From assembly GCA_918797485.1 (NCBI GenBank), contig CAKKNE010000005.1:4216001-4280000 (forward strand): a DNA stretch of 64,000 nt. The letters are read 5' to 3'. A program made the translations under genes and the position numbers. The notes below the pieces were generated by a model. That model was given only the letters and a program-made list of their open reading frames with translations. It made no database searches and was not told the DNA's origin. This DNA comes from Pelagomonas calceolata (taxonomy: Eukaryota). This document shows positions 7,874-64,000 of the stretch, one piece after another; position 1 is the first letter of the stretch; each line of letters opens with the position of its first letter.

Positions 7874-10800
7874 ATGTGGCTCTCGACGACGGGCAGCAGC
7901 GCCCTGGGCCAGCCCTCGACGAACACGGCGCGTTCCGAAGATTCGTTCCGCCACCCGCCGACGCATCGCGACTACCGCCGGATCCGGCGGCCGACGCGCG
8001 CGCTGCCGAGTCGTTTGTTAGGAGGGCGCTCACCGCGCACAAGAACAAAAAATAGAGTCGACTTCGCCGCCCTCAGAGTACCGAAGCACACGATCAAGAA
8101 GCACGCGCCCAGAGAGACCACCAATGTCCCGACGCCGCCCTCGCCGTCCGAGGAGCTCCTCGCGAAGTACAAGTCGAGGCACGAGGAGCGGCCCTGGGCC
8201 CAGCCGCCCACGCCCAAGGCCCGTCCTAAAACACCGGTGGCCCCGACGCCGCCGCCGCCGCCGCCGCCCCCGTCGCCTTATAGCCCGAACACGAAGAAGA
8301 GTTTATTAACAGTAGTGAAGTCGTTGGACGCGGGCCTCGCCGCCTACTTCCACAAGCAGAGGAAGCACATCAAGCTGGGCACGTCGTGGCAGGAATTCTT
8401 CGAGTTAGTTGATGAAGATAGATCTGGTCGATTGACCTTTGATGAGTTAGCATCGTCTGTACTCAATGGAACCCTGAAATGCAAGGACCTGTCGAGGTAC
8501 GATTTGAGGGTCTTCTTCGCCAAGGCCGACAAGGATTCAAGTGGAGAAGTCACGCTGAGGGAATTTACGACTCTCATCTATGAGGTCCAATTAAGTGCGT
8601 GGCCGGACCTCACGGATGACGCCTGCGACAAAGCTGTGGATATCTTGAATCAGGCGGCCTCACATTGGTATCGTGCCGATGGGAATTGGTACAAGATCTT
8701 CAAAGCCTTGGACGTCGAGGACAGCGGTGAGTTGAAATTTGACGACTTCGTTCAGGCTGTTCGGGGTTCCTACCCGCCCGGCGTGGACGTTCCTTCGTCC
8801 AAGTTATCGTCAGCGACGCTGAAGGGCCTCTGGAAGAGATTAGATAACGATAGATCGCAGCACGTCACTTTACAAGAATTTATGGTGTTTTTTCGGAGGT
8901 GCCAAACGGTGTCCGCTTCGGAACTTCGTCGATGGCGTCACGCCGCCGCGACGCCGTCGACGCCGCCGCGAGAGAGGTCCATGCGTCTCGTGAGAGCAGG
9001 TCGCGTCGATGGCGTCGACGCGGACGCGACGCCGCCGCGACGCCGTCGACGCGCCTCACGAGAGATCCCACGCAGGCACGGCCAGGCGCACTCCATGTTC
9101 AAACAAACCGAACACGACAAGCTCCTGCATGGCACGTTGGAGAAGCCTGAACCGCCGCCTTCCGTCGAGTCAAGTGATAGTGAGGTCTGGAGTACACTAA
9201 GACTATTGATGAGAACCCTGAACGCCAAAAACACAAAAAAGAAGAAGTACGACAAGGCGGACGTCTGGCGCGACTGGGCGCGCTTGTTCGATGCCTTGGG
9301 CGGTCCCGACCGCGTGACGTGGGCCACGTTTTCATCTGCTGCCAAAGCACTCACAGATGTAGAAGACCAAGCATTGGCGGCGCTGTGGACCCGGGCCGAC
9401 GATGATAAGTCCGGCGAATTGGGCAGAGGCGAGTTCCAGAGATGCGCTTATACTATACAAGTCCAGAGTTGGCCTGTACTAGAGGGCGAGGAGTTGAAGA
9501 AGGTCGTCGCGTTATTAAATGCGAGTGCAGAAAGATTGCACCGCTGCGGCGGGAACTGGTTCAAGATCTTCCGGCTCTTCGACGACGACGACAGCGGTCC
9601 TTTCCCGCGTCCCGTCCTCCGATGCCGATCGTCCGGCGGCCTTGCGTCGCGTCGATGGCGTCGAGCCTCGACGCCGTCGACGCGTTGATACACACGCAGG
9701 CCTCATGTCCTACGAGGAGCTCAAGAAGGTCCTCAGGACGGGATACCCCGGCCTGGAAGTGACTACGGATCAAGTCACCGACAACCAGATTAGGGGACTG
9801 TGGCGAGGGTTGGATGACGACTTGTCGGGCGAAGTGAGCGTGCAGGAGTTCATGATTTTTTTTAGGAGGCACGGGCGCGAGCACTCGATGTTCAAGCCGA
9901 CGGACCACGATCTAGCTAGTCGCGGGTTGTTGAAAGGGCCAGAGAAAGTGGAGAAAGTACAACTCCCACCGGAGAAATTAAGATCTATCGTCCTGGATCT
10001 AAAAAGGAACCTCAAAAAATATTATGAGAGGCGGGGCATGTCCCCGAAGCTCGACGAGCAGTGGCGCGTCTTCTTCAACACGGTCGACGAGGATCAGAGC
10101 GGTAGACTGGACTTTCCGGAATTAAAAAGGGCCGTGAAAGTCCTACAAGTACAGTTAGACGACGAATCGCTCCGAGGCTTGTTTACCGCCGCCGACGAAG
10201 ATTCGTCGGGAGAGATCACGGTTGACGAGTTCCAGCACTGCGTCTATAAATTGGAATTAGAGACGTGGCCGGATTTGCTGGATAAGGAGGAACTGTTGCA
10301 AAGAGCCATTTCCGTGCTCAATGCACACGCGGAGAAGTGGCACCGCGCCGGCGGGAACTGGTACAAGATCTTCAAAAGAATAGATGCTGATGATAGCAAT
10401 ACGTTGGCCTTTGAGGAATTCCGGCACATGTGTCGAAGTATCTACCCGGGGCTGAACATCGATCGGAAATTGTTGCCGGACGGACTACTGAGGGGTTTAT
10501 GGCGAGGCATCGATGCTGATAGTAGTGGCAATGTCACCGTCCAAGAGTTCATGGTCTTCATGCGGGCGCACGCGGCCCATTTAGATTCGATGGCGGGCTA
10601 TACGCACCGAATGCATGAACTAGCTTCATCCCAAAAAGTGGTGGAAGATACGGTAAACGTGGAGAAGGGTACGGGACTGAGGAAACTCGCGTTACTGCGG
10701 GACGCTTCCATCAAATTTGAGGTGTCAGAAGAACCTCCAGTGGTCGCGGAATGGGACTTCGAGGCTTTGGTGAGGTCCATGGGTTTGTCTGAGTCTGATC

Positions 10801-10982
10801 TGACGGCGGACGACTGCCACGCCGTCTGGCGCGCTATTGCTGGAAGGGGCGAGGCTTATGATAGGGACGGGCTGCTCGCGTGGTGCCGCGACCCGCCCGT
10901 TTTGAAGGACGGGGCTACTGATGACGAGGCGGCGCCGGCGCCGGCGGCGACATCTCCGGCGACGACGGGGGGCGCGGAGTAA
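7874..10982 (+). CDS. Multi-EF-hand calcium-binding protein, 3 exons (7874-8898, 9076-9596, 9700-10982), ~942 aa
   Basis: Many DxDxSG..xxEF loops in three tandem units, each containing WP.L...GNW[YF]KIF...YPG...GLW..LD.D.S..V..QEFM. Splicing restores FFRR|HGQAHSMFK (parallel to FFRRHGREHSMFK) and DDDDSG|LMSYEEL. Confidence 0.85.
8899..9075 (+). mobile_element. GT-AG intron, 177 nt (in-frame, stop-free), introner-derived
   Basis: GTGCCAAA+CGGTG... to ...GATCCCACGCAG. Contains two TCGATGGCGT motifs and interrupts a repeat unit. Confidence 0.75.
9597..9699 (+). mobile_element. GT-AG intron, 103 nt, introner-derived
   Basis: GTCCTTTC... CGCGTCGATGGCGT ...TTGATACACACGCAG. Removal joins two ORFs inside an EF-hand. 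Confidence 0.8.
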
Positions 10983-11461
10983 GCGGCGGAATTCATATTT
11001 GGGGAGGCAAGCGAGAGCGCCGCAGGGGGTCGCGTCGACCACGCGGGGGGCTGCCCTCGTCGCTGATATAAGCCTGGGCTTGGGCTGCAAGTCGCCGCCG
11101 CGCGCGCCCCCGGTCGGCAACGTCATTCCGGCTGTGCCAGGGTGTATGGAGCTGTCTTTTGCGAGCTGGTGAAGGCGGCACACGAGTCTTCGTGCGTCGT
11201 CCGATCGATTCGCTAGTAGGATCGCGGCTCGATGAAGCTGGGCTACCAAGGTTTGGGACCGGATAGCACGGCACAACCGCAGAGCTAGGGAATTCTAAGG
11301 CTGCGTAGCATCTCTCCGCAGCGTTTCCTGCTAGCACACGAAGTTTCAGCTTCGTGCAGCGAGTTTAAGCCTGGTTTCACCAGCATCTAGCATCATCTAC
11401 AACATAGAGGCATAGCCGCTGCCTCCTGTGCTTCTCTCGCATCCACAGCTGTAGACGCATC

Positions 11462-12031: not shown

Positions 12032-12205
12032 AAAATCGGCGAAAATCGCATCGGCGGCGGATATGCCAGCCGCGGCCCCTCAGGGGTGGCGGCCGGTAGG
12101 ATTAAGAACTATGCAGATCATCATGGTCTTTTCTTATGCACACTTGGTCCCCTTGATGCGTAGCGCGCAGCGATGCGAGGTCATGAGGCGGCGCCGCGAC
12201 CCGCC

Positions 12206-12633: not shown

Positions 12634-15600
12634 CTACGGATCAAAGACCTCGGGCGTGAACGGCGCCTTCGCGTCGTCGGCCGCCGTCTGGTGGCCCATG
12701 GCGATGTCCATCAGCGCCGCGTGGATCGCCGCGTACGGCAGGTGCCGCTCGAGGTACGACCGCGGCAAATTCCCGTCGACCGCCGCATTTTCAATGACCA
12801 TGTACTGCGCCCGCAGCGGCAAATCCATAAACTCCGGCGATTTTTCATGGAGTCTCATATGCGTCACGATGGACGACGCCGACGACACAAAGTCGGCGAC
12901 CATCTGTTGCGCCCTTTTGGGGGACTGAGGATCATCTAACGGCCCAGAAGAAACATGAGCCAAGGCTCGCAGCGCGAAGGAGATCACGTGGAGACCGGGC
13001 GAGCAGCACGCGAGGTCCGGATACCACCTCGCGGGTTTCCACGCGTCGGCAGACATCGCGACAGCCAAAGCCCAAGGGGTGTAGCGGAAATCCTCTGATG
13101 TTTCCACAACAGCAGCGGCCTCCCGATGCAAGTTCCCGTCCCGCTCGTAGTGCTCCACACCGAACGGTGAATCCGCCGTCAAAGCACGATAAAGGGGAGA
13201 ATCATAAGCGTCGTCGTCCACAGGGGGAAGATAAGTAGGGTCGTAGGGCTTCTTGGGGGGCGGCACGAGCCACGACGGTGCTGCCGCGGTACTGTTCGAC
13301 GAGCCTTGGGCGTCCAACGCTAGCAATGCCGAAGATAATAAGTGGGGACACGCTTCCCGCGAGACTCGCGCGTGCGACTCCCTCGTCAGTGCCCTTAAAG
13401 CTAGGATGTTGCCCAGTCTCACACAGGCAGCTAGTAACGCATCCAACACGCCGGCGGTCTTCAGGTCCTGGGAAGCTGGCACCCAGTCGCCTGTCAGACT
13501 ACCTTTCCGGACCCGCTCGAAGATCGGTCTTAATTGTTTGGCGGCGAGGGCCGTCTTGCACCTGCGTGTGTGATGCGGTGATGGCGTCTGCTCGATGGCG
13601 TAAACACAAGGACGCCGCGCACGCACCGCGCCATCTCGTCGACCGCGGCCCTTGTAAATGCGGCGTCCAAGCAGCGCGCACCGTCCGCACCCAACACCCT
13701 TAATAAAGCTTCGAGCTCGGGCCCCTGCAATACTTTCTCAGCTAAAGACGGCTCCTTCGGCAACACTTCATTCTGCTTTTTTTTGCTCTCGGGCGCTACG
13801 TACGTCGACCGCCAGGCCCTATGTTGTGGACAATACACTACATGAGCTGGCAAAGCTCTTATAATACGGACATATTGATCTGCCACTCTCTCAGCTAATA
13901 CAGAGCCGATCGGTTCTCCTCGAGCCCTATCAGCAGCAGACGGCAGATTCGGATCTTTCTGCCAGCCCGGCGGGCCACCCAGCATATCATACACATGACC
14001 GCAGTAGTCCACGTCGAAGTAGCCCGCAGCTCGCGCGCAGGCGCCCATGAGTGACGTGTAGGTCCGTTCCGCGGTCGTCGGTCGTGTGAATTGGTTTCCT
14101 GAGAAGAACGCGTTCGGGATCTCCCGGTCCAAGAAGGTGGTCACGGCTTGTCTCGCGTACTCCAGCGGTCGCAATCGGACGTCTCCGACGACGAGCGCGC
14201 CGCCGAACACGCCTCGCGCGTCTTCTCTGTCACTAAAATCCCAGCGCGCGACCTCCAGCAACGAAGCTAGGCGCGTCTCGGCGTTCACGAGCGGCTGGAT
14301 GGCCCGTTCGTTGCGCGGATGAGACTCATAACCAGCTAAAGGTGCTTCCTTGGGCTTCTCGAGACCCTTCCTCGCGGCTTCTCGCAACGCGGCTTCGCGC
14401 CGCTCCTGGCGGTACGCCGCCTCGACCGGTGCTATTTGAGCTGCCAATGATTCAAGACTTTTCGTGATGTTCGTCAGGCAGCCCTGGACACATGACGCGA
14501 ACCTATCTAAAACAGCTTCAGCTAACGACTTGGAATCGGATTCGAGCTGAATGGCGTCGGCCTCGCAGGCGCCGTGGCCCAAACATCGTCGCGCATATCT
14601 CGACGTTTCTAGGAGTGTTCTAACCAACCGAGACGGCCCTTCTGGCGCGGTCGTCGCGTCCAACCTTCTGAGGAGTTGGTTCCTGAAGGGCCACAACGCA
14701 CCGGCGTCGCAGTGCTCCAGCAACAAAGACCCGTCGGCCAACGACAAATGATCCAACATGACATTCGCCCAGCGGCAGAACGTCGCGAGGTCCCCTTGTA
14801 TTGGAGAACAAGATAGTCGAGCCTGAACTCTCCGCCAGTCTAGTTTTAATGTCAATATGGAAGACGCCTGGACAGCATCAGCGTTCAGCTCCCCCCCGCC
14901 AAACCGCCCGTCGCGCTCCGCCCGTAGCAACGTCTTGACGCATGCATCGACGTCGTTCACGGAAGCTACTCTAGATGCAAGTGAAGAAATCATCGAAGCG
15001 CAGTTCGCCGGCGCCGTCGACGAAGCCTTCCCAGCGAACTTTTGTAGTGCTTCGGCGTCGGCCTTCGACGCGTACGCTAAGTGGTAAGACGCGACCTTTT
15101 TGCGATCTCTTCTGAGTAGAGCCGCCAGGGCCACGAACGCGTCGGCCAGCTGCGGCAAGTCTGGACTTTCGAAGTGCTTTTCGTCGTAGTGCTTCATGCG
15201 ATGTTTCGGCGGTAACGCCGCGCCTCCTCTTGTTGGATCGTGCCGTAAGGCCCACAGCACTTCGTCCCGAGCTAGGGCGCAACACGCTAACACCAAAGGC
15301 GCCTTCGCCGTGCTCAACCCCGGCACGGCGACCAACAGCCCTTGGGCCACATCTAATTCACCGAGTAGATAAGCCCGTCTCTCCCGATGCTTCAGGCCAC
15401 TATGTAATACCGCGTTCTTCGACCACTCCTTGGCTAGTTTTGCGAGCTTGACGTCGCGCCGTTGCAGCGGGTAGTTCCGGGGCGGAAACCACTTCCCTAG
15501 AGCCTCCAACTCGCTATGGACATTTATCGTCGACGAGCGATACAGCTGCATGACTAACGCATCCTCGCAGGCCATCTTCGATACTAAGAGCGCAAGACCT

Positions 15601-19857: not shown

Positions 19858-22468
19858 ATGGGCCAAAACCAACCAGGAGGCTTCCAGGACGACGGCGTGC
19901 CCTCGGCCGCGCCGCCGCCCGAGCTCACGACGATCACGGGCGTCGGCGTCCCGGGCGACGGCACGACGCGGCTGGACGAGGCCGAGGCCTCGCCCGCCCA
20001 AGAAGCTTTAGATCAAGCGCGCGTCCAGCAGCTCACGCCCGATAGCCATGATGAGCTCGTGTCGAACGCCGCCGACAACGACGAAAGACGCGCGGCGCGG
20101 GACGGGAGGGCCCAGTACGAGCGCCGCGTGCGCGCCCAGGACGAGGCGCCGCCGCCGCCCTCCGCCGCCATTCGCCAGGCCGTCGACCGCGCGGCCGCGC
20201 GGTCGCCGGGCCGCAGCGTCACGTCCCATAGTTCGGGCGACGCGCCGTCGCAGGAAGAAGCTCCCTCAGAATACATGTGCCCCATCACTTTATCGATGAT
20301 GGCCGACCCCGTCGTGGCCAACGACGGCCACTCGTATGAAAGGGCCGCCATCGCGCACTGGCTCGCGACGCACAACACGTCGCCGCAGACCCGAGAACCG
20401 ATGGTCTCGCGCGAGCTCGTGCCGAACCACGCGCTGCGCGCGCGCATCGCCGCCTGGCGGACGCAGCGCGGGTTAGATCCCTTGCCGGCGCGCTGGATCC
20501 CGCCCGCGGCGCCCGCGCCCGCGCCCCAACAACCGCAGCAGCGCCAGCCGCGGCCGACGGCGCTGCACTTGACGAACGAGCGCATGGCCGTCGTCTGCCA
20601 GGCGATCCACGGCGTTTTGAATAGAGCGCCCCACCTGCGGCAGACGCTGGGCCTCGCCGCGGCGCCGCGCGGCGCCGTGCCGCGGCTCGTGCTGTCGCGG
20701 CCGCGCGCCGTCGAGGCGCTCGCCCATTATGCCCGAGACGTGCCGGACCTCCAGCACTTCGCGGCCGTGCTCTCGCGCGTCGGCGACCGGCGTCCGCCCA
20801 CGCGGTTCTTCACTTGACGCGCCGATGGCGTGGAGGCCGGGCTCGGACGCCGTCGACGCGACGCGCCCCGCGCAGATCCACGCCCAGCAGCAGCGGGCCC
20901 TGGACCAGGCGAACTCGGGCCTGCCGCCGCCGCCGCCGCCGAACGCGCCCCAGCAGCCCCTTCCGTCGAGCTTCCCGACGCGGCAGCCCAACGCCGAGCC
21001 CGTACCCAGTAGAGCGGCAGCAAGATTGTCCGCGGCCTGCAGCGCCCTGCGGGCCGACGACGCGTCGGCCTTGGTGGCCGCGCTGACGGGCATCGGCCCT
21101 TCTGATTTGCACAACGTGCAATTACGAGAGGACTGCACGAACATGGCGTTAAGGTTGGGCAACAACGCGCCCGCGGCCTTGAGGAGGGCGGCGCACGACT
21201 GCGCGTCCGGCGATTCCATATTGCACGTCGCGTGCGCGCAGGGCGCGCACATGTGCGCCGCGCAGCTTATTGATCGCTTCGGCTTCGACCCGTCGGGGCG
21301 GGCGCCCTCGGACGGCGCCACGCCCCTCCACCTGGCGGCCTTCGCGGGGCGGAGGAAGCTCGTCGAGGCTTTACTAAGAAGAGGCGCGGACGCGAACGCG
21401 CGAAGCTTGGGCGCGGACCCGAACGCGATCCGCATGCGCGACGGCCCGCGGCCGCCGGTCTGCGCGGACGCGACGCCGCTGCATTACGCGTGCCTCGGCG
21501 TGCGCACGTCGCGGTCCGAGGCCGTCGAGGCCCTGCTCAAGGGCGGGGCGTCGCCGCATAGGAGAGATGAGCACGGCTCCACACCTTTACATGTGTGCTG
21601 CCACCGCGGCGTCGAGGGCGCGGCGCTCGCTTTATTAAAAGCCGCGTCCGAAAAGCCGCTCACGGACTTCAGCGAGGGCGCCTCGGCTTCCGATAGAGAC
21701 ACGGCCTACGCGTCGCGCCGCGACTACGTGGAGCGCTTCTCGCCGCTCCATCGCCTCGCGCAGTCGGGCCGGCCGGACTGGGCGCCCTCGAACCTCATAA
21801 AGAAGCTCGTCGAGGCGTCGGCGGACGTGCACTCGCTGTCGCGACGGGGCCTGACGCCGTTGCACGTCGCGGCGGCGGGCGGCCGCGCCGCGTCGTGCGG
21901 CGCGTTAGTACGAGCGGGCGCGAACGCCGGCTTCAGCCAGCGGGGCGGCGCGCACGAGACGCCCTTGCATGCAGCGGTCCGAGCGAAGCAGGTGGGAGCT
22001 TTAAGGGCGATGCTCGAGGCCTGCCCGGAAGATAAACGAAGGGCGACGTGCGACGCGCCGTCGCAGGACGGGTCGACTGCTTTACATTTAGCGTGCGCGC
22101 TGGGCAGCGTCGACGCGTGCGAAGCTTTGTTAGATGCGGGCGCGTCCGTCGACAGTAGGACGGACGACGGCGACGCGCCACTGCACGTCGCGGCCTGGAC
22201 GAACTCGTTGGCCGTCGCGGACGCGCTGCTCGCGCGCGGCGCGCCCGTCGACGCCGCGAAGCTCGACGGGAGCACTGCCTTGCATCTGTGCGCCGCGCGG
22301 GGCCTCCACGCGATGGCGCGCGGGCTCCTCGACCACGGCGCGGACCCGTCGCGGCGGACCGTGTCGGGCTCGAGCCCGCTGGACCGCGCGCGCCTCTTCC
22401 GCGACGACCGGCTCGCGCGCGTCCTCGAGCTCGCGGCCGCGACGCCGCCGGCGAGCCCCACTAACTAG
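19858..22468 (+). CDS. U-box + ankyrin-repeat E3 ligase-like protein, 2 exons (19858-20778, 20876-22468), ~837 aa
   Basis: U-box EYMCPITLSMMADPVVANDGHSYERAAI...NTSPQT...LVPNHALR. About 9 ankyrin repeats (TPLH/TALH). MGQ start could be myristoylated. Confidence 0.85.
20779..20875 (+). mobile_element. GT-AG intron, ~97 nt, introner remnant (donor could be 20767)
   Basis: Contains CGATGGCGTGGAGG and GTCGACGCG, ends CCCGCGCAG, and joins the U-box and ankyrin ORFs in phase 0. Confidence 0.7.
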
Positions 22469-25500: not shown

Positions 25501-28500
25501 GCGCCCGCGCGCGGCGGCCCGCCGCGCTCGCGGCCATGCGCCGAAACGTCTTTTTGCGCACGCTCAGGCATACGCTCCTGTGCGGAAATAAACCAGCGTT
25601 TTGGGTGCTTGGACTCTCCGCCCGTCGAAGAGTTAGAATTGAGCACTGAAAGCGCGCCAGCCCGTGAGCCATCCGACTAGGCATCCCGCGACCGCGCCGG
25701 CTGCCGACGTGGGTACGCCAAAGTACGGCCGGAGCCCAGCCTCGAGGCCGACCGCTACCGCCGTGGCTATCGCCCACGTCAGCCCTCCCGTAAAGGCGTG
25801 AAGAACGAAATGATGCTGCGCATTTAAACCACACACGCAAACGCCGAAAACGGAGCCGACGACGCATCCCGCGACCGAAAACGGCGCGGACAACGCGGCG
25901 CCTCCAATAAAACGTATGCCGCACTCCAAAGCAGCCAAGGCGAGTGTCGAAGCCGCAACGGCCGATCCGGCCGCCGTGCCCGCCGCCCACCCCCGGGGCG
26001 AATCCCGGCTTCCCTTTTCGGTCAAGCCCACAGCCAAGCCAACGATAAACCCCGAGGACAAAACCGCGGCGAGCACGGCGAAAGGCGTTGGCACGGTGAA
26101 AGTCGTGGCGCCGCCCTTGTCGCCGCGGGCGCGCTTGACGGCGCGCCGGAGCCCGCCGGGCAGCGCCGCGCCGCCGAGGACGAACTTTTTGATCCACACG
26201 AGGTCGTCTCTTATTTGCTGGAGCCTGTGTGGGAATCAAGAGGTGAGTCGAGGTCACTTTGATCTGTCTGCACCGCTGGGAGCCGAAACTGGACCACGGC
26301 CGCGACGAGCCTCCCCGCCGGCACCGGCTCGCCCGGCGCCGACGGCAGCAAGGCCCCGCCAACCAACGTCTCCGCCTCTACGGGCGCCGCCGCGCCCTCG
26401 ACCTGCTCGCCGACGGATATGAACACGTCCTCGAGCGACGTCGCCGTCACGGAAACGTCGACGAGACCCAAGCCGTCGGCCTCGGCCTCCAGCCCCTCGA
26501 AGAGAGCGGCGACGCGCGCCTTGGATGCGTGGATGGTGTACGTCGTCGTGACGTCGCGCGCGGAGTCCTCGAGGAGGGGGGCCTCGGCGCCGTCCGCCCA
26601 GTTCCGCGACGCGGAGAAGCTCGCGCCCCGGGTCGCGTTCAGGAGCGGGCTCTTAAATGATGAGGAAAAGCTTTTGGGTGTCGACCCGAGGAGCGGATTC
26701 GCGGCGTCCGTTTCGGTCGCCCGGCGGAGGTCCTCCTCGAGCTTCGAGGCCGCCGCTAGCTTGGCTTTGGGCATGTGCTGCGCAAAAACCGCTTTAAGTT
26801 GATCGCGCGCCGCGGCGGCCGTCGTCACCGCGATGTGAAGGCCGCCGGTCGACGTGCCGTCCGCTGCGTCGTCGCCCCCGCCGAAGTGCCGCTTCAGGAA
26901 AGATAGAGTGCCGCAGCACGTCACGCTCCCGGCCGCCATGATCGCCACCCGGTCCGCCAACGCTTCGGCCTCCTCCATGTGGTGCGTCGTGAGGAGCACC
27001 GACCGGTCGACGCGGACGTCGCGCAGCAGGGTCCAGACCTCGCGCCGCGCCACGGGGTCCATCCCCGCCGTCGGCTCGTCGAGGACCACGAGTCTGGACC
27101 CGCCGGTCAGCGCCGCGGCCATCATCACTTTGCGCTTCTGGCCGCCCGAGAGCTTGAGCGGAAACCCCTCGGCCATTTCCGTGAGGCGGAAGAGCTCCAG
27201 CAGGCCAGACGCCTCGTTCTCCGCTCTAGATTCCTCGACGCCCTTGAGCCGCGAGTAGAAAATGAGGTGCTCCCGGAGCGTGAGCCGAGGGAATAGCGCG
27301 TCGTGCTGCGGGCAGAAGCCGAGGAGCTGGCGGAGCCTATCCAAACCATCCGCGTCGGCTAAGGGGCCGAGCGTGCGGATCCCGAAGAAACTTGCGCTGC
27401 CGCCGTCGGGCGCCATTGCTCCAGTCATCATCGACATGGTGGTCGTCTTGCCCGCGCCGTTGTGACCCAGCAGGCAGAAAATCTCCGAGTCGCGGATCGC
27501 GAACGTCGCGTCGGATACGGCGACCTTCTTCCCGAAGACCTTCCGGAGGCCTCTTACCTGGACCGGCGCGTCGCTATCTTTATCATTCTCGAACCACTCG
27601 TCGTGGTCCACGAGCGGCGCCTTCTCCACGACCTCGTCCGGCGGCGGCGGTCGCCAGTACGCCTTCCGGAGGCAAAAGAGCAGGTCCTTGCCCTTGCCCC
27701 GCGCCGCCGACGTGGACACCTGGATCACGTACCACAGGACGGCCGCCCACAACACCACGGACACCATCAGCATGCAGTAGACCCCGGCCGTCCACGCGGA
27801 CTCGGGCCGCCAGCCCCGATCCTCAGTCTTCTCGTACCAGAAGGGCCAGACGTCCTCGCACATGAGGTGCTCGTCGGCGCAGGGCGCCGCCGTCAGCGAC
27901 TTCCTCGCCAGATGCTGCTCGAAGGCCTCGCGCCGCGGCCTCGGGGCTTTTTCCCAGCACTCTTTTCTACACTTCTCGCACGGGTAGCGCTCCCCCACAA
28001 AACCGTCGTCGACGAGCCAGCACCGCCAGCCCGCTCGTTTTTTCGTCGGGCTGAACGAGTCCACCAACAAATCGTAGGCGAACTGCGGCAGGAGCGCGCT
28101 TGCGAAGTGCGCGCGCGGCCGCGCCCGCAAGCGCCAGTTCGTTTTGTATCTCCGTTTCCCAACGTTCCAGGTCCGGAGCGGGGCCCAGAGCAAGTAGCAC
28201 CCGTGCAGGGCCGCGTGCAACAGGGGCGGGAGCCCCGCCGCGGCGATCTGCGACCGAAGGAGGCACGTGACCACCACGAAGGTCTGGAGGACGAGCGCCA
28301 GCAGAAAGAGCCAGTGGAGGGCGAAGAGCTCGAGGAACGCGGCGACCTCGAAACTCTTGCCGGCGCGCCGGAAGAGGCCCGGCGCGGCGCCCGCGGCGAT
28401 CGCGACGGCGACGCCGCCGCCGACGGCGACGCCCTCGACCAAAAAGGATGCGAGCCAGTAGGCCGCGTCGGCGCCGCCCGCCGCGCGCGTCGCCTCGCGC

Positions 28501-43038: not shown

Positions 43039-44293
43039 TCAGGCCTTGCACTCGACGGTGCCACAGGCAAGAGCGGTTTCCGGCTTGCAGCCCTCGTCGG
43101 CGTCGACGCCGTAGTAGTCCTGGCCGTTGGCCGTCCCCGTTCCCTTCGGTCCGGCGACCTCGCCTTGCGGGGAGTCCACCGCGGGGGAGTAGCCGCCGCC
43201 GCATAACTGCTTCGTGCCCCAGACGACGCTGTGGGCGCAGATGTACTCCTCCTGATACGTGTCGTAGCCCTGCTTGATGGTGAAGCGCGGGCGGCAGGGT
43301 TGCGTGTGCTGGTTCACGTTGTTGTGGGCCCGGACGAAGAAGCTGACGAGGGTGCGCTGCGACTTGCAGGCCTCCTCGGGCGCGAGGCACAGGGACTCGT
43401 CGAAGGACCCGGGGACCCCGGTGGCACCGCCGCACTCAGCATCAAAAAGCCCGTTCTTGTCCTTGTTCATTTGAATGAACCTGTGCGTAGAGAAAGTCGC
43501 GCCGACGGCGCGGGTCTCCGACGGAGTCGCGTCCGCCGGAACGCCATCGCCGCGACCGCGCGCATTGAGACGCTGAACCAGACTGGCCGAGGTCCCAGGC
43601 GCAGTGCGAGCAGGGAATCAGGTACGGGAGCGCGTTGATAAAGTTGGTGCACGCGTCGACGGCGGCCTCGGTCGGCGGCGAGTGGTAGTTCACCGCGAAT
43701 GTGTGTAAGGTCTTCCACGTGTGCGGCCCGAAGACGCGACTGTCCCAGCTGGGCCGCGAACCGCAAGAGCCCGGAGGAAAGTCCAGGAGACCCTCACCTA
43801 CTGACTCGTACTTGCCGTCAACTTCTTTGAAGCCATTGACGAGGTCAGACCCAATCGACCACGGGTTGGTGGCGCACTCGTTCTTGTTCGGCTCCACTGT
43901 CAGAGGCGAGCGATTCGTCCAACCCTCCTGGTCCAGGATGTCGATGAAATCCTGGGCGCTGCACGGCGAGTTCTTGTCGTGGCCGCAGGTCGGCTTGGCC
44001 TTCTGGTTCGCTGCGGGCGCGGCCGGCGCCGGCTTCTCGTTCGCGGCTTTCTTGTCCGCGGCCGGCGCGGGCTCGCTCGCGAGAGACGTCGTGACGGTCG
44101 TCGTCGGCTGAATGCTGGTCGCGGAGCTGGCGGTCGCGAGGATCGAGCCGAGCACAAATGAGAGGACCACGGCGCCAGCTACAAGGCCCTTGCGCTTGAT
44201 CGTTTTGCCCTGAGCTTTGGGCTTGAGGTAACACTGCTCCTCAGGAATCGTCTTGAACGTGGTCGGATCAACGGGGAAGTGTTCGAAAGTCAT
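43039..44293 (-). CDS. Erv1/Alr-family FAD-dependent sulfhydryl oxidase with membrane anchor, 2 exons (44293-43584, 43480-43039), ~383 aa
   Basis: GPHTWKTLHTFAVNY, IPCSHCAWDL (CxxC), FVRAHNNVN. The intron joins the two halves of the Erv domain. Confidence 0.85.
43481..43583 (-). mobile_element. GT-AG intron, 103 nt, introner remnant
   Basis: GTCTGGTT+CAGCG...CGATGGCGT...TTTCTCTACGCACAG|GTTC. Restores DLGQ|FIQMN. Confidence 0.8.
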
Positions 44294-44624: not shown

Positions 44625-46174
44625 ATGCGCGCATTGCTACTGCTCGGCACAGCCTCGGCAGCAGCAGCCCTCTCGAACGCCACGCTACACGCCATCGCCG
44701 CGGACGCTATTTGGCCGGAAGTAGCGACAGGATGCATTTTGAGAGCAGACTTCCTTAACCACGTAGTAGAACTAGAAACGAGCACGGGCGAGACGCGGAC
44801 GGTGCTCTCGAAGGAGAGCCCAATCCCACCGGTCATCCCGGGGCCGCCGCAGCTCTGTGCTCTCAAGAACGACCATGATAATGATGGAAAACAGAGGTCT
44901 GTGTTAACCATAGCTACTGATCTGAAGTATTTGAGACCGTGGTCGCATTTCCTGTGGAACAAGCTGTGCTACTGTAAGCGGGAGGGCCTGGATTTCTTAC
45001 TGTTTCTGGGCAACGTCGACACGGCCCACGCGCCGAATCCGAAATGCCTGTCCGGTAAAGCAGGAAACCACTGGATTAAGGCCGTCGCGATCCACGCTGC
45101 CTTATCTCGCGCGGGCCAGGACGAAGTTTTAGTGCTAGATACGGACGCCATCTTCCGCAGGGAGTCCTTCTCAAGGCACGGCCTGGCGTCCTGTTATTTC
45201 GGGGTCATGGAGGACGCCCAGGCTTCTGTGGCGGCCGGCGCCGAGCATTATCAAGTCTTCGTCAATGCCGCCGTGTTGCTCGTAAGAGAGACTCCGTGGA
45301 CGCGGGCTTTGTTAAGACTGTGGTGGCGCGACCGGTGCGGCGAGAAGGACCAGCTCATTCTGTGGCACTCGCTGCTGACGCTCTGGAATAAAGATTCAAA
45401 TCTGAACTACGACGGCGAATTGTTAGCTTATACATCTAGAGACTACAAGAACAAGAGCTCGACGTCTACATATAAACACGCTAGGCGGGTGGTCACGTTC
45501 TGTGTGGAAATCAACCAGTGCGACGGGTGCACAATTCTTCGCTAAGTCATTTCTCGGCGATGACGCGGCCGTCCTGGCTCGGTCGAGCGGCGAGGAACCG
45601 GCATCGCCACGCCATCGAGCAGGCGTCGCGTCGATGGCGTGGAGGTCCGCGCGACGATTCAGCACGAACGTGCCGTAAAATTTTGATTTCCACACAGGTC
45701 ACGTTCGACTACGCGCGGCAATTGCGGCCCGCGCACTTCGTGAAGTCGCCGGTGGCGCGTTCGTGGCCGGCGTCCTACTTGAGAGTGTTCCACGCCGTCG
45801 CCGCGACTCGGTGACGGCGCGGCGGCCTCGGTGCGTCGCGATTGTCCCTATTCCGCACAGGTGCCCACCCGATCTACCACCTCGCAGCCGACAGTCTATT
45901 AGATTTCCCGGACTTCGCGCTCCTGCCGCAGACGGCGCTGCCGCCTCCGAAACGGTGCCCTGGGCCCGGGCTGCCGTCCTTGCGGAGCAACGCCGCTCGG
46001 CGGAAGAAGGGCGCGCGCGGCGCCGGGCCGGCGTCGTTCCTCGCGCACACGAAGAACCGGCCGGCCTTCGACTGCTGTCCTGCTGGTAACGTCGACGCGG
46101 CCGCGCCGTGCGTCGCCGTGAACCTCGAGCGGTCGACGCACCGCAAGGGCGAGTCGACGCCGCACCGTCGTTAG
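44625..46174 (+). CDS. Glycosyltransferase, GT34 (GMA12/MNN10)-like, 3 exons (44625-45491, 45698-45758, 45861-46174), ~413 aa
   Basis: Signal peptide, NKLCYC, HWIK, VLVLDTDAIF (DxD), VNAAVLLVR.T.W, DQ. Confidence 0.8.
45492..45705 (+). mobile_element. Intact introner: non-autonomous TIR element 45500-45697 with 8-bp TSD, spliced as intron 45492-45697
   Basis: TSD GTCACGTT at 45492-45499 and 45698-45705. Perfect TIRs CTGTGTGGAAATCAA and TTGATTTCCACACAG. Internal hairpin ACGCCATCGA...TCGATGGCGT. Confidence 0.95.
45759..45860 (+). other. GT-AG intron, 102 nt (probably old introner)
   Basis: GTTCGTGG...CCTATTCCGCACAG|GT. The spliced junction VAR|AHPIYHL matches the uninterrupted paralogous copy at 48463. 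Confidence 0.75.
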
Positions 46175-52332: not shown

Positions 52333-52361
52333 TGGCCCCGTTCTTTGTTTGTACTTCTGTT

Positions 52362-52383
52362 CGGTGCTAGGACTAGTGGGCGG
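52362..52383 (+). repeat. 22-bp 3'-flank motif copy B
   Basis: CGGTGCTAGGACTAGTGGGCGG about 30 nt after the FAAL stop. Confidence 0.6.
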
Positions 52384-52388
52384 CGCCC

Positions 52389-52472
52389 CTGGGGGGGGAA
52401 CTCACGTGCACGCCATCGACGCGACGAGTAGTGCAAACAGGTTCTTTTTAGGGCTCGGCCTAGGCGGGGTAC
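52389..52472 (-). mobile_element. Probable terminal/3'UTR intron, introner remnant
   Basis: Carries CGCGTCGATGGCGTG and ends TTCCCCCCCCAG. A donor at 52472 would change the end of the DUF2358 protein to QMGAAH*. Donor position is uncertain. Confidence 0.45.
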
Positions 52473-58341: not shown

Positions 58342-60579
58342 ATGTATTTTTGGAGGTTTGTCGCCGGTTGTGTCGCGGCCTTTGGGTGGGCGCCGCCGCG
58401 GCACGACGCGCGTTCGAGGAGGAGCGACGCGTGGTCGATAGCGGGCCGAGCGTGCGGCGCCTCTATACCATTATTAGGGTTGGCCGCGCGGAGCTTCTGG
58501 CGGCGTGTATTGCGGGGGCTGCTCGCCGCCGTTTCTACACAAAGACCGCTGCCGAAGTCCCCCGACGTTAGAGTGGTGTGGTACGCGGTCGTCCAGGCTT
58601 GTCTGAGGCATAAAGTGCGGACGCTGGAGGTCTTGCTTGGTATTGTACTTGTATCCTACCTGCTCACGAAGGCGCCTCGTATCAGACGGCAAGCATCCCT
58701 ACCCATTGTGCGAGCGGCGAGTACCCCCGTCAAGAGAAGAGGTACTGACGAGCCGCCCGTGCCCCGCTTATATCTACAGTCCTGCGACAACGACCGGGCC
58801 AAAGCCACGGAACGGTGGCGCGCCACCCAACAATGGCGAAGGGAAAGGAACGTCGATAGTATTGCTATCAGTCAACAACCGAAGTACCACGACATCAAGC
58901 GCGTCTACCCGCACTATTTACACGGCAAGACGAGGGACGGGGCCATCTTCATGTGGGAGCGCGTCGGGCGGCTCGATACGTCGGCGCTGAAGAGCGGTCG
59001 CGTGACGACGGACGAGGCTTTTAGACATTTTATCTTCGTCCACGAGTACATGGCTCGAAAATATGATGGGGAAGAAACGCGCATGGTCACGGTCTTAGAT
59101 ATCGAAGGGTTGCGGTTCAGCGAGGTCAACAAATTCCTCCTGAACCTCATCTCGACCGCGTCGGACGTCCTGAACAACTTGGCACCGTTCCGCGTGCGCA
59201 AGATCATCGTGGTCAACGCGCCGTCGTGGATCGGCGCGGCCTGGCCCGCCGTGCGGCGTGTCTTACCGCGAGACGTGAGAGACCGCGTCACGATCGTCGG
59301 AAGCGACTACCCTTCCACTTTGTCAGAAGTGGCTACCTCAGAGCAGTTACCGGCCGATTATGGTGGTAGTGGACCGCCTCTAGGTGAAGCCGATTCAGAG
59401 TTAGATATGCTCGACGCCGTCTGTGTCTTGAACGCCGGCGGCTCGGTAGACTTCCTCGACGAAACTAAAACGGTGGAAGCATTCGAGGAAGAAGTCACAC
59501 CACCACCTCCAGAAATACAGCCTGATACGCCGTGGTACGCGAAGTTATTGGGGCGGACGTCGTCGGCGAAAATCGCCCATCTGGGTAATACGGAGGGAGA
59601 GTTCTACTACTGCGAGCAACGAAAAAGGTGGGTCCTGGAGGGTGACGAAGATGAACAACCGGGCACGCCCGGTCGAAGTGTGTCAGAGGACGACGTCGTG
59701 CTGGCGATCCAGGCCGCGACGCTGCGCCGGTCGCTGTCGACGTCCGAGAACTTGGGCAGCCTCGCGCAGCGGACGCAGGACGATTTGAGGAGGACGCTGC
59801 CGAATCATTTTTCCGCGCCGGCGCGGGCCGTGCGCGACGCGTCGCCTGAACCGCCGTCGGAGGCCGACCCCTTGCTGAGCTTCGTCCTGGGATTAAATCT
59901 CGCGTCGGTCTGCGCCGCGAATTCTTTCTTGGTGGTCGCGGCGCCGTGCTGGGCGCTCGCGCCGGCGTCGCAGGGTGGGGTGGGGTTGCGCACGGCCGAC
60001 GCGTCCTGCGTGGTTGTTGTCGCTTGTGTGCTCGTGCTCGTGTTGAGAATAAGGGCGCCCGAAGCGCTCGCAAAAATGCCGCGGCGAGCACCATTAAGGG
60101 GCGTGCGCGTCGCGGGCGCGGCGGGCTGCCTCGCGACGCTCGCGGCGCCGGCGCTCCTCGCGGCGGCGCGGCAGGAAGGGTTATTGCCGCGCGACTCGAT
60201 CGCGGCGAAGGCCTGCGTCGCTGTGGTGGCGGCGGCATGGCTCGTGACGGGCCGGTTGGGCCGCGACGCCGCGGCGGCGGCGGCCGGCGCGGCGCGGGGC
60301 GGCCGCGTCCGGGCCGTGGCCGCGCTCTCGGACGCGGGCGACGTCGCCGGCGCGGTCGCCGCGTCGCTTTTGTCCACGGCGGCGGCGCCGCAGCGCGGCT
60401 TGTATCTCGCCGCTTTAGGTTATGCCGTGGTCTACGGCGTCTCGCTGGCCGTGTACCGGCGCGTCCTCGGCGACGTGTCCGACGACTCGGGCTCTGCGCC
60501 GTGCTCCATTTTCCTCGAGCTGCCCGCGCGCGACGTCCAGCGGATCGTGGACGACATGACCGAGGGGGACGAGGTCTAG
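58342..60579 (+). CDS. CRAL-TRIO (Sec14-like) lipid-binding protein with C-terminal multi-TM region
   Basis: YPHYLHGKTRDG, VLDIEGL, P.RVRKIIVVNAPSW...W..V, LPADYGGSG. Start uncertain (58048 or 58342). Confidence 0.85.
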   Translation: MYFWRFVAGCVAAFGWAPPRHDARSRRSDAWSIAGRACGASIPLLGLAARSFWRRVLRGLLAAVSTQRPLPKSPDVRVVWYAVVQACLRHKVRTLEVLLGIVLVSYLLTKAPRIRRQASLPIVRAASTPVKRRGTDEPPVPRLYLQSCDNDRAKATERWRATQQWRRERNVDSIAISQQPKYHDIKRVYPHYLHGKTRDGAIFMWERVGRLDTSALKSGRVTTDEAFRHFIFVHEYMARKYDGEETRMVTVLDIEGLRFSEVNKFLLNLISTASDVLNNLAPFRVRKIIVVNAPSWIGAAWPAVRRVLPRDVRDRVTIVGSDYPSTLSEVATSEQLPADYGGSGPPLGEADSELDMLDAVCVLNAGGSVDFLDETKTVEAFEEEVTPPPPEIQPDTPWYAKLLGRTSSAKIAHLGNTEGEFYYCEQRKRWVLEGDEDEQPGTPGRSVSEDDVVLAIQAATLRRSLSTSENLGSLAQRTQDDLRRTLPNHFSAPARAVRDASPEPPSEADPLLSFVLGLNLASVCAANSFLVVAAPCWALAPASQGGVGLRTADASCVVVVACVLVLVLRIRAPEALAKMPRRAPLRGVRVAGAAGCLATLAAPALLAAARQEGLLPRDSIAAKACVAVVAAAWLVTGRLGRDAAAAAAGAARGGRVRAVAALSDAGDVAGAVAASLLSTAAAPQRGLYLAALGYAVVYGVSLAVYRRVLGDVSDDSGSAPCSIFLELPARDVQRIVDDMTEGDEV

Positions 60580-60809
60580 TGTGATATGTTGAGGTTCACT
60601 TATCTTATGACAGACGACCCCCGACGTGTTGTCGGCTCTGTGACCCTGAGTGTGAGGGTCACTTCCGATTTTTAAGGGTTGATTTTGCGGCTGATTTTAC
60701 GCGAGATTAACCCAGCTTAATCCTTTTTTTATTCAACCGTCAGAGAGGTTAAAAACTAAACGCATGGCACGAACTGCATCGATGACCAAAAAAACTAACA
60801 ATTGAAAAG

Positions 60810-60980
60810 ATGGTGTCGGCCCTCGAGAATTACCTGCACGGGCAGGATTCGGAGCAGCTCAAGTGCCTCTTCGAGCCGAACAAGCTCACCAAGAAGAAGC
60901 GCGACAGCCTCGTCGCCACCGTCGGCCGGCTCCAGAAGGCGCAGGCGCGCATGAACCAGGGGATCCTCGCGCGGGGGTGA
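60810..60980 (+). CDS. Possible 56-aa small ORF or gene fragment
   Basis: MVSALENYLHGQDSEQLKCLFEPNKLTKKKRDSLVATVGRLQKAQARMNQGILARG*, GC3-rich, behind an AT-rich leader. Below the ORF-track cutoff. Confidence 0.35.
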   Translation: MVSALENYLHGQDSEQLKCLFEPNKLTKKKRDSLVATVGRLQKAQARMNQGILARG

Positions 60981-61024
60981 TCGATCTCGCGCATACGCGT
61001 TCTAACGTTAACATACTACAGTAG

Positions 61025-64000
61025 TTACATGATCGCGCACAGCAGCGACGACCGGTTCGAGAGCGGCATGCCCCAGGCGTTGCGCGGAATCGCCTTGAGG
61101 CGCGCGAGCTCGGCCTCTTCCGCCCTTCTATCCATCTCCTCCTGAGATATAATATTCCCGTCTTCGTCGATGCGTCCTTCCAATTCCGCGAGTTTGCGAT
61201 CGCGCACCGCCTCGAGCGAATCCGCATTCATATCAAACGCCTCCGCAAGTCTTTGGTCGGCCGCGACCTTCTTGTCTCTACTACGGGCCGCGGCTCTCTG
61301 TTCGAGCTTCTTGTCCAATGCTATGGCGATGGCCGAGTCCCACTCGTCCAACGAGATGATCCCGTCCTTGCTCGTATCCAGCTCCCAGAGCATCGGGCCC
61401 AATCTAGCCGGCACGCAGAGGTACTGCAAATGTTCGTTGCCACAAGATATGAGGAAGCGCGACACCCGCTTCTGGTTGATGCCCGCCATGAGCTCCTCCT
61501 TGTCGAGCGTCCACGAGTCGTCGGCGTCGATCATCTCAAAGACCTCTCTGGCTTTCGTCTGGAAGTCGATGGCGAACTCGTTGTCCGCGTCGCGGTCCTT
61601 CTGGCGCTCGTCGAGCAGCTTCGTGAGCGAGCTACCGACCGCTTCCGTCCACTCGTCTTTACTGATGCTCCCGTCGTCGTCGGTATCCATCTCTGACAGG
61701 GCCTTGTCGAGGAGCTCCGGATTCAATAGGTCTTGCAGCTCCGGCAGGGGGCATTTTACCACAAACTCGATCACGTCCTCGTCCTCGCCGCAGGCTTTGA
61801 CGAGCTCCTCCTTCGACAGCGTCCCATTCATGTCTTCATCAATAAGGTCGTAGACGATGACCGCCATGTCGAGAAATTCGTCTATGAACCTGTGCGCAAA
61901 TCAACCAGTGAGTCGGGTGCTCGCGTCGATGGCGTCAAGGTCGACGCGAAGATTCAGCACGAAGGCGCCGTGGCATTTTGATTTATGCACAGACCGAGAC
62001 TCATCGTCGTTGCCGCGAGCGAGCGCGTGCCGCTCCAAGATAGCCTCCAAGGATCTATCACTCAGAGCCTTCCACTCGTCTCGGTCCAGTTCGCCGTCTG
62101 AATTGGTATCACATTCCTTCATCGCGGCTTGCACGCGTGGAGGCACCAAAAATTCGGAAAGGACTGGGTTCCGGCAAGTCTTGATGAACCTCAAAACATC
62201 GGGCTTGCCCTTGAGCGCGAGCATGATTTCGGGAAGGCTGAGCGTCCCTGAGCCATCTTCATCTATCAGGTCGAAGATCTTCGCGCAGTTCGCGCGGAAG
62301 TCCTTGGCCAGCAGGTCGGCCTGCGGGGAAACAACACCAGTGAGCCGCGCGGGTCTCGAGACGAGAATCGACCGCCACGCCATCGAGCAGACGGCGCGTC
62401 GATGGCGTACACGCTCGGCAACAGTAGAAGACCGCCCGTCGAGGTCGAACGAAAGGACCTTTGAGACGCCGCGACCGCGACCTGCTCCTGCGCGTCCCTT
62501 TCCCTCTTAGCCTTCAGCCGCCGCTTAATCACGGAATCGTTCGTGTCCATGGTCCTGCTCTTGGCCGCCAACCGCGAGGCGAGCGACTCCTTCTGGACCA
62601 CCACTGGCGCGTCCTTGACCCTCTTGCGCCGGGGCGCGCCCTTGGGCTGCGGCGGCTTCAAATCCTCGGGAGTGAGTTCGAGCTCGCCCCGCCGGTAGGC
62701 CGCGAGCATGTCACGTAACGCGCGGTCGCGGACGGGTACAATTTTGTCGAGGCCCGGCACGCCCGTCGAGTTGATGTTCCGCGAGTGGTTGAACCATGCA
62801 TAAAACTCCGGGAACGACACCGCGCCGGACCGATCGACATCGACCTGCCGGAACGCATCCCGCAACTCATCGCGAGTAGGAGGCTCGTCGACGCCCAACA
62901 ATAACCCGTTCTTCATCATCGCGATGAACTCCTGCCGGTCGATCTCTCCACTATTATCAATATCATACATCGAGAACGCGCACTGCAGCACGTCCTTCAA
63001 TTTGTCGTCGCGCGTCGGGAGCTGGGCCGCGGCCTTCATCCGCTCCGACTCCCTATTGTTAGCGGCCTTCTCGAACTCTTTCAGTTCATTGGGATACTTG
63101 TCCTTCAAAACGCGCGAGAGCCAGGCGTCGCGCGCTTGCTGGACCGCACTACTGAGTTCTTGGCGAGCCAGTGCTTGTTTCTGAATCACTTCGCTCCTCT
63201 TGATATTGCCGATCTCTCCACTAAGCCACTCCCTTGCTTCGGTCTGGGCTATTGACGTGTGAATCGCTCGCTCGCCCAAGGCTGATAAATATTTATGTCC
63301 AAGCTCCATCAGTACCCTAGCGCGTTGCAATCGCTCCACTCTGTTCATCAAATGCTCCCTAGCTGCTACTTGACGACGACAGTGCGCCAAGCAACACGCG
63401 CCCACCGCGTTCAGCATATCCACGGCGTTCTCCGTCCTAAAGACCTTCTCGATGGCGCCCCTACCGAGCTTATCCAATGATATGAACATCTTGTCGCGCT
63501 TCTTGTTGGCTATCCTACCCTTCTCGGCCTTGGTGATCAAAATCTTCATGTCTCTTCTCCTTAATATCTGTTGCCGGTGCACGCGCACGGCTAACGTACG
63601 CAATTCGAGTGCCGTGATCGCCCGGGCCTTCTCCGCGGCATGGTACTGCGCCGACACCTCGCGAATGCGTATTAATTCAATCTGCATGATCACCCACGTC
63701 GCGCGCATGTTCTCTCCCCTTTCACTGAGGAAGGTGTGCGCCGCGAGTAGATCCGCGTTCAAGGACAGACACTTCTTGCCGCGCCACGTCAAATATTCAA
63801 AGGCCGCTTTGCGTCTAAAATGCAGCTCCCAGGCCTTGGCCGGGGCGGCCTTGCCTTGGATGAGGGCCGTCTTCTGCTCTCGGGCCGCCCTTGCCCTAAT
63901 CATGAGGTAGCGGTGCGCGTCGTTCCGGTTCTCTCGATGTCTTCTCGCTCGTCCGACGCGCGCCTTGCACCACTGGTAGGCCTTCTGCTTCTTCGTCCAG
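61025..64000 (-). CDS. Large EF-hand protein, 5'-partial (exons >64000-62482, 62320-62001, 61889-61025)
   Basis: Multiple DxDxxGxxxxxE loops. The frame is open to the window end. Splicing gives AQEQ|ADLLAK and GNDDE|FIDEFL. C-terminal CAIM is CaaX-like. Confidence 0.85.
61890..62000 (-). mobile_element. GT-AG intron, 111 nt: internally deleted introner in reverse orientation to its host gene
   Basis: + strand CTGTGCGCAAATCAACCAGTG...TCGATGGCGT...GATTCAGCACGAA...TTTTGATTTATGCACAG is homologous to 45500-45697. The donor lies exactly 8 nt outside the TIR. Confidence 0.9.
62321..62481 (-). mobile_element. GT-AG intron, 161 nt, introner-derived
   Basis: + strand CTGCGGGGAAACAACACCAGTGAG...CGCCACGCCATCGAGCAGACGGCGCGTCGATGGCGT is homologous to the intact element. 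Confidence 0.85.

What the first reader, a model, noticed from the sequence alone, without database searches (positions are those of the whole stretch)
8899..62481. Nearly every intron in the window appears to descend from one transposon family (decay series)
Seen: 11 inferred introns, plus a probable 12th at 52389. All 11 end in variants of the TIR end (TTGATTTCCACACAG, TTGATTCCCACACAG, TTTATTTCCGCACAG, TTGATTTGCGCACAG, TTGATACACACGCAG, ...CGCAG). Most carry GATGGCGT or ACGCCATC. In 9 of 11 the downstream exon starts with GT or GC, as expected if the donor is the first copy of a target duplication. Lengths run from 59 to 206 nt, from pristine to barely recognisable. Established: TIR-element introners with TSD-derived splice sites are described in Aureococcus and Micromonas. 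Inference: long-running intron creation by this family, with progressive deletion and erosion toward ordinary-looking introns.
Basis: partly seen in the sequence, partly recalled or inferred. Interest (0 to 1): 0.8.

Follow-up and report, generated by a model that had tools for sequence, protein, structure and literature searches.

The report
Algal introns born from transposon relatives
In this marine alga, RNA confirms ten of eleven introns in the window, one is an intact small transposon and the others carry more or less of its sequence, so most introns here likely came from one transposon lineage that spread in several waves, a known way of making introns that likely reaches further in this genome than reported.

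Summary
The observation mostly holds. RNA joints confirm 10 of the 11 introns; the 11th (43481-43583) rests on reading frame and Pfam; the '12th' at 52389 has no support as an intron. The organism is Pelagomonas calceolata (one spliced product is 100% identical to a protein so named). Intron 45492-45697 is an intact introner: 15-bp TIRs, 8-bp TSD, donor from the TSD, acceptor from the TIR. 73 metagenome copies show the same build, in both orientations. A profile of those copies puts 14 of its 15 best window hits inside introns. Three introns tested are absent from relatives at 68-81% protein identity, so they are not ancient. 'One family, decay series' is too simple. The evidence points to three related lineages (A, B, C). 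Length does not track divergence. TSD remnants in the worn introns are at chance. The most worn-looking intron (8899) is missing in three close lineages. Five C-type introns link to the element only by a central palindrome and short end motifs. Introners in this species (956, 15% of introns) and introner decay (fungi) are in print; the near-total reach and sublineages were not found in my searches.

The parts
45492..45697 (+). Intact introner intron, type A, 206 nt: first TSD copy 45492-45499 (GT donor), element 45500-45697 with perfect 15-bp TIRs (45500-45514, 45683-45697, ending in the AG acceptor), central palindrome 45609-45640
   Evidence: (E 8e-66)
45698..45705 (+). Second TSD copy, exonic, 8 of 8 identical to the intron's first 8 nt
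61890..62000 (-). Intron, 111 nt, subfamily B, element reversed relative to the gene; both TIRs kept, 8-nt leader matches the exon in 2 of 8
25578..25657 (-). Intron, 80 nt, GC donor; both element ends recognisable, core lost
   Evidence: (contigs only)
26225..26283 (-). Intron, 59 nt, GC donor; both element ends recognisable, core lost
43481..43583 (-). Inferred intron, 103 nt, in an Erv1/Alr gene; B-like ends plus core
   Evidence: no RNA joint shown
62321..62481 (-). Intron, 161 nt; whole central palindrome, and the element's left end at the acceptor in the matching orientation; donor side worn
   Evidence: (E 1.2e-9)
9597..9699 (+). Intron, 103 nt, type C; core hairpin and TIR-like acceptor end; shared with close lineages, absent in a 68%-identical relative
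8899..9075 (+). Intron, 177 nt, type C, doubled core; absent in three close lineages and in the 68% relative
13562..13626 (-). Intron, 65 nt, type C, in Nckap1; present with other interiors in close strains, absent in an 81%-identical relative
20779..20875 (+). Intron, 97 nt, type C; aligns end to end with 9597; present in 15 of 15 close calls
45759..45860 (+). Intron, 102 nt, type C donor-side motif; weakest link to the element (E 1.2)
52363..52440 (.).

Best explanation
Ten RNA-confirmed introns and one inferred intron in this Pelagomonas calceolata window include one intact TIR element with an 8-bp target duplication, and the rest are likely older insertions of the same non-autonomous DNA transposon lineage, from at least three related waves (A, B, C) rather than one family ageing evenly. 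Shown: the element is about 203 bp with 15-bp TIRs and an 8-bp TSD; the spliced unit is the first TSD copy plus the element, so the mRNA keeps the original target sequence; the donor is the GT or GC that starts the TSD and the acceptor is the AG that ends either TIR, so both orientations give introns. Inferred: an unseen transposase moves it in trans; exonic insertions survive only at GY targets; internal deletions come early and do not date a copy; the donor-side TIR and the TSD wear away while the acceptor end, a 5-8 nt donor-side stub and the central palindrome persist, probably under selection for splicing.
For: Intact anatomy and splicing. 73 outside copies with both TIRs, TSD 8 of 8 in 37 and 7 of 8 in 18, modal length 203; all 55 of these offer a GY donor, 20 forward only, 20 reverse only, 15 both. 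A profile built from those copies alone puts 14 of its 15 best window hits in the ten introns, the 15th at 52406. With the search motif masked, 4 of 10 still beat all 300 shuffles. Anchored end tests: both ends p<0.01 in 5 of 11, acceptor end in 2 more. C-N-G-Y-G lies 8-10 nt after the donor in 11 of 11 against 7.6% after any GY (motif chosen after looking). Exon starts GY in 9 of 11. Recent positions: unspliced gene calls of relatives run through the 8899 site (14 of 15), the 9597 site (15 of 15) and the 13562 site (13 of 15; the other 2 do not reach it), and break at their own sites instead. Each EF-hand intron sits in one of three internal repeats only. Subfamily B diagnostics co-occur in 8 of 75 copies. 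Flanks hold many intermediate copies; 17 of 40 ab initio neighbouring introns score 8 bits or more against 0.9% of control segments.
Against: The search motif came from the window, so core hits are partly circular: masked, 6 of 10 lose significance (26-280 of 300 shuffles reach them). 8899, 13562, 20779 and 45759 show no significant TIR match at either end. TSD remnants are at chance. The end-test null is exonic CRCAG, not non-family introns, and TTGAT fits a generic branch-point pattern (recalled). 16 of 40 ab initio neighbours have no hit at all, some probably false calls. Intron 8899 looks old but maps most simply as a recent gain. No transposase or long TIR-bounded copy was found. No whole genome was held.
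Confidence: 0.68

Rival explanations
1. One family, one continuous decay series: every intron began as the type A element, and its length and wear give its age.
For: Intermediate copies exist, including donor-side TIR variants on clear A/B copies. TIR mismatch rises with divergence (rho 0.51) and TSD match rises with length (rho 0.35) in 73 copies. Alleles of introns 9597 and 13562 differ by indels between strains.
Against: Length does not track divergence (rho -0.06, p 0.63). A strain-specific in-frame copy of about 51 nt already exists (P0082). B diagnostics co-occur. All five core-only introns share the same donor-side 8-mer, absent from A and B ends and found after 34 of 22,490 GY sites, and align to each other. 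8899 is absent in close lineages.
Confidence: 0.12
2. Only the A/B introns are transposon-born; C-type introns arose otherwise and share the palindrome and end motifs because these are host splicing signals that the introner also carries.
For: In C-type introns short islands are perfectly kept amid unalignable sequence, and masking the core removes the match. TSD at chance. No TIR match beyond the last five letters in 4 of 5. The core is often doubled, as expected of a selected hairpin or enhancer.
Against: C-type positions are lineage-specific. Their exons start GY in 4 of 5 and their stub sits 8-9 nt from the donor, the TSD spacing. 62321 bridges the types: full palindrome, B-type acceptor end, C-like donor side.
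Confidence: 0.1
3. C-type introns are still being gained by a second route without TSD, by copying a whole existing intron (reverse splicing or repair-templated transfer), so a new intron can look old at birth.
For: 8899 has TSD 2 of 8 and no TIR, yet three close lineages and the outgroup lack it; one gain is the shortest history on the tree. The start of intron 9597 has barely changed across the same lineages. Near-intact copies with a foreign 8-nt leader occur: 61890 and L051, an ARF1 gene whose exon starts CG.
Against: One gain plus one precise loss also fits, as the tree is unresolved. No near-identical twin of 8899 was seen; its best partner, in L021, aligns only loosely. One case only.
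Confidence: 0.1

Closest known systems
Introner elements of Aureococcus anophagefferens (Huff, Zilberman and Roy 2016; paper not held; seen only through citing passages)
   Same: Pelagophyte host, about 200 nt, TIRs and direct repeats of constant length, one splice site carried and the other taken from the TSD. An 8-bp TSD and splicing in either orientation are recalled for that species, not read here.
   Different: Sequence homology to the Aureococcus elements was not tested. The worn, core-only introns have no counterpart in the passages I could read.
Putative introner elements of Pelagomonas calceolata (Guerin et al. 2022, PMC9481584; passages and supplement passages; Gozashti et al. 2022, PMC9860276, Tables S5-S6 rows)
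   Same: Same species; length peak near 210 nt; GT and GC donors, AG acceptor, conserved TIR; 956 copies. Very likely this A/B family (inference: the logo figure and Data 3 could not be seen).
   Different: They count only introns covered over 90% by a repeat (15% of introns) and give no TSD, orientation, subfamily or decay analysis in the passages read; Gozashti lists four Pelagomonas MAG families of 80-186 nt with TSD and TIR marked unknown.
Fungal introner-like elements (Collemare et al. 2013, PMC3609843; passages)
   Same: Multi-copy introns with stable folds that shorten and degenerate until they look like regular introns, proposed as the source of most introns of their hosts.
   Different: Ascomycete families lack TIRs and TSDs; here both are plain in young copies.
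Micromonas IE-A families and remnants (Verhelst et al. 2013, PMC3879977; passages)
   Same: Several subfamilies built from shared and private motifs, GC donors, over half of all introns, degenerate remnants reduced to one short motif.
   Different: Green alga, no known sequence link; their remnants lie mostly outside introns or inside older ones, whereas here the worn copies are themselves the spliced intron.

Membership tests
TIR/TSD introner (MITE-type, Aureococcus pattern) | Spliced out of the transcript as an intron | tested here: met
   RNA joints for 10 of 11
TIR/TSD introner (MITE-type, Aureococcus pattern) | Many similar copies at unrelated sites, similarity reaching both ends | tested here: met
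   73 copies with both TIRs, median divergence 5.5%, none flanked by window DNA; about half of the reads laid on 43000-62900 fit only in part, with over 1000 loose ends at the TIR
TIR/TSD introner (MITE-type, Aureococcus pattern) | Terminal inverted repeats | tested here: met
   Perfect 15 bp at 45500 and 45683; both ends significant in 5 of 11 window introns
TIR/TSD introner (MITE-type, Aureococcus pattern) | Fixed-length target site duplication that supplies one splice site | tested here: met
   8 bp; 55 of 73 copies at 7 or 8 of 8, all 55 with a GY donor
TIR/TSD introner (MITE-type, Aureococcus pattern) | New intron positions, absent from orthologs | tested here: met
   Met for 8899, 9597, 13562 and for the insertion in P0082; not tested for 45492 itself or the other seven
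TIR/TSD introner (MITE-type, Aureococcus pattern) | Autonomous partner with the same ends and a transposase | tested here: inconclusive
   No long TIR-bounded copy in the window or 205 kb of loci; genome not held
TIR/TSD introner (MITE-type, Aureococcus pattern) | Insertion in nucleosome linkers | not testable with these tools
   No chromatin data
Type C introns as members of the A/B element family | Homology outside the 10-mer core | tested here: inconclusive
   Lost on masking; acceptor-end match significant for 9597 only, combined p 0.012 for the five
Type C introns as members of the A/B element family | TSD remnant above chance | tested here: not met
   21 of 60 at positions 3-8 over the ten worn introns, permutation p 0.22; only the first two letters are enriched
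Fungal introner-like elements | No TIR and no TSD | tested here: not met
   Both present; works like them only in later decay
Fungal introner-like elements | Stable fold in young copies, lost in worn ones | tested here: met
   z -4.1 for 45492; -3.8, -2.8, -2.1 for 9597, 61890, 43481; -0.1 to -1.1 for five others; 8899 and 62321 not folded
hAT, P or Merlin superfamily (8-bp TSD; recalled) | Cognate transposase and superfamily end motif | not tested
   No transposase found; the CTGTG end fits none of the recalled end motifs well; left unassigned

The most novel reading that the evidence does not exclude
Outside the centromeres this alga's introns have been almost wholly replaced by one transposon lineage, whose central palindrome and donor-side stub have become kept splicing signals, and worn C-type introns now spread by a second route that needs neither TIR nor TSD, so that introns are born looking old.
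Probability: 0.17. Interest if true: 0.78.

Novelty: new member of a known kind. Interest (0 to 1): 0.47.

Why it matters
How much of a genome's ordinary-looking intron set comes from transposons is an open question, since pipelines count only near-identical copies (15% of introns in this species). Here a known DNA transposon anatomy, many wild strains and strain-level gain or loss make the path from transposon to regular intron directly testable, including which parts selection keeps. If the second route is real, wear cannot be used to date introns.

Tried and rejected
Whole-genome census: no genome held. TIR scan of viral contigs: 0 matches. Earlier scan notes: none. Atlas search gave no taxon for the window's own cluster. 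52389 as an intron: rejected. TSD remnant as a decay marker: at chance. Length as a clock: rejected. GC-ward drift within the 73 copies: AT-to-GC 5.7% against GC-to-AT 5.4%, no clear bias. Faster decay of the donor-side TIR overall: 29 against 27 mismatches in 40 copies; only position 2 differs, 5 against 0. One long TIR pair in L036 is two neighbouring copies, not an autonomous element. Most copies with TSD 5 of 8 or less read as older copies or possible chimeric assemblies; only L051 resists. My gene finder, trained on the window, found 8 of 11 intron loci (3 exact) plus 2 extra at the penalty used, so it served only for overlap counts. 17 of 122 loci were set aside as non-family; 3 duplicates and loci under 1 kb were dropped before the ab initio count. 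Exact look-ups failed for 7 of 10 proteins, so introns 43481, 45492, 45759, 61890, 62321 have no ortholog test; 25578 and 26225 were not tried.

Full report
Organism. The spliced EF-hand gene at 7.9-11.0 kb is 100% identical over 942 residues to a protein its source names Pelagomonas calceolata (P0080). The window is 64% GC with about 25 genes, seven of them with introns.

The introns are real. PolyA reads and contigs were laid on 7800-27700 and 43000-62900, 39,802 of 64,000 bases. Ten joints resolve to GT..AG or GC..AG; 25578 rests on contigs only and 26225 on one read plus contigs. The tables hid 9 and 65 weaker rows. The eleventh, 43481-43583, has no listed joint at depth near 1.5; frame, a stop-free join and an Erv1/Alr match that ends at the donor support it. 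All 24 gene models built with these introns translate with one terminal stop. Long contigs cross several other genes unbroken, so within the laid span the count is not only a product of motif spotting. The candidate at 52389 is not supported.

The intact element. Intron 45492-45697 is an 8-nt TSD copy plus a 198-bp element with perfect 15-bp TIRs; the second TSD copy opens the next exon. Of 106 distinct hits, 73 have both TIRs within 4 mismatches and flanks; TSD is 8 of 8 in 37, 7 of 8 in 18, lower in 18; lengths run 92-262 with mode 203. All 55 copies with a good TSD offer a GY donor, in one orientation or both; phases 0, 1, 2 are 28, 13, 11. The TIR base that is the A of the acceptor is changed in 0 of 40 acceptor ends and 5 of 40 donor-side ends. 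The intact intron folds into a long TIR stem (z -4.1).

How far the other introns belong. A profile of the 73 outside copies ranks 15 window hits at E up to 1.2: 14 in the ten confirmed introns, one at 52406; the first exonic hit follows at E 1.5 and 43481 at 1.6. The search motif came from the window, so I masked it: 45492, 61890, 25578 and 26225 still beat 300 of 300 shuffles, the other six do not. End tests anchored at the acceptor (ignoring CRCAG) and 8-10 nt after the donor give both ends for 5 of 11, the acceptor end for 62321 and 9597, and neither for 8899, 13562, 20779, 45759 (null is exonic sites). All 11 carry C-N-G-Y-G 8-10 nt after the donor, six at exactly 8, against 7.6% by chance; the motif was chosen after looking. 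Nine of 11 exons start GY (p 0.002 even at a 35% background), but TSD positions 3-8 are at chance. In 177 kb of flanks an unbiased-by-motif gene finder called 40 neighbouring introns: 24 have some hit, 17 score 8 bits or more (controls 2.1% and 0.9%), 16 have none. So 'most' is supported outside the window; 'nearly all' is not shown. Guerin et al. report more and shorter introns in low-GC centromeric genes, which may be of other origin.

Not one even series. Four diagnostic changes co-occur in 8 of 75 copies, 61890 among them: subfamily B. The five core-only introns all have C-N-G-Y-G-T-C-C after the leader (34 of 22,490 GY sites by chance), 9597 and 20779 align end to end, and 8899 aligns best to a flank intron in L021: a type C. 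Shared descent from an older sibling element is the simplest reading; convergent selection is the alternative, and some A/B copies show halfway states. Length does not track divergence, and a strain carries an in-frame copy of about 51 nt at a site empty in the window (P0082).

Positions are young. Unspliced gene calls on long contigs of relatives serve as the test, since they run into introns. A relative at 68% identity crosses the 8899 site in 14 of 15 listed members and the 9597 site in 15 of 15, and breaks at its own site (15 of 18 members listed). A relative at 81% crosses the 13562 site in 13 of 15, the other two not reaching it (15 of 17 listed). Close strains keep 9597, 13562 and 20779 with differing interiors. 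Three close calls at 93-94% read into 9597 but cross the 8899 site with no intron; one lies on a 5086-bp contig, longer than the 3-kb transcript. The tree does not resolve them; one gain is shortest, gain plus loss is possible. This worn yet possibly young intron is the main unexplained result.

Mechanism. Shown: TSD-derived donor, TIR-derived acceptor, both orientations, scarless mRNA, frequent internal deletion, lineage-specific positions. Inferred: mobilisation in trans by an unseen transposase (none found), survival only at GY targets, several waves, and selection keeping the acceptor end, the stub and the palindrome.

Known versus new. Read: Guerin 2022, main-text and supplement passages and preprint passages; its Figure S3 logo and Data 3 sheet could not be seen and may already show partial repeat cover of many introns. 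Gozashti 2022, passages, parts 1-2 of 7 and supplement rows. Collemare 2013, Verhelst 2013, Roy 2020 preprint and the Amoebophrya paper, passages. Gozashti 2025 and a 2024 review, term searches with no hit for this genus. Huff 2016 was not held. Ten literature searches found no account of subfamilies, decay or strain polymorphism of these introns; most subscription papers are outside the library. The element type, its presence in this species and the idea of decay into regular introns are known. The reach into ordinary-looking introns, the three lineages and the strain differences appear to be unreported extensions.

Verdict. Real feature, known kind, useful extension; interest 0.47.

Noticed in passing
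window 421, 16720, 19649, 35088, 41027, 44505, 49952, 53237, 55242, 56127, 57854: A motif GCTAGC, 5-7 nt, TAAGACACTAGC occurs 11 times, all between genes, and 15 times in 205 kb of family loci; likely a promoter element or a remnant repeat.
   Followed up: partly
   Followed up: partly
L051:641-789: A near-intact element splits an ARF1 gene, but its 8-nt GT leader matches the next exon in 1 of 8 and the exon starts CG in an invariant stretch, so the donor cannot come from a TSD of this site. Window 61890 has a milder form. Replacement of an older intron, conversion between copies or sliding are all open.
   Followed up: partly
P0082 (close strain, EF-hand gene): A 17-residue in-frame insertion reads as both element ends joined, about 51 nt, at a site empty in the window.
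   Followed up: partly
window 48472-48771: A 95% copy of the last exon 45863-46162, starting just after the acceptor of intron 45759, without the intron end upstream.
   Followed up: partly
window 54014-54554 minus: An open frame with no clear start behind a gene end; the gene finder proposed an intron 54227-54554 with no family hit; low RNA depth.
   Followed up: partly
window 22580-34904 minus: A 4057-codon ABCA-type transporter gene with a long cysteine-rich N-terminal part and a C-type lectin domain; RNA shows a close paralog.
   Followed up: no
window 8899-9075, 45759-45860, 61890-62000: Three introns are multiples of three long; 8899 is also stop-free, so retention would give a 59-residue insertion.
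   Followed up: no
relative clusters P0063-P0078 and P0093, P0109-P0122: A related lineage has its own introns at other sites of the same genes, with core-like read-through text, suggesting the same lineage of elements is or was active there.
   Followed up: partly
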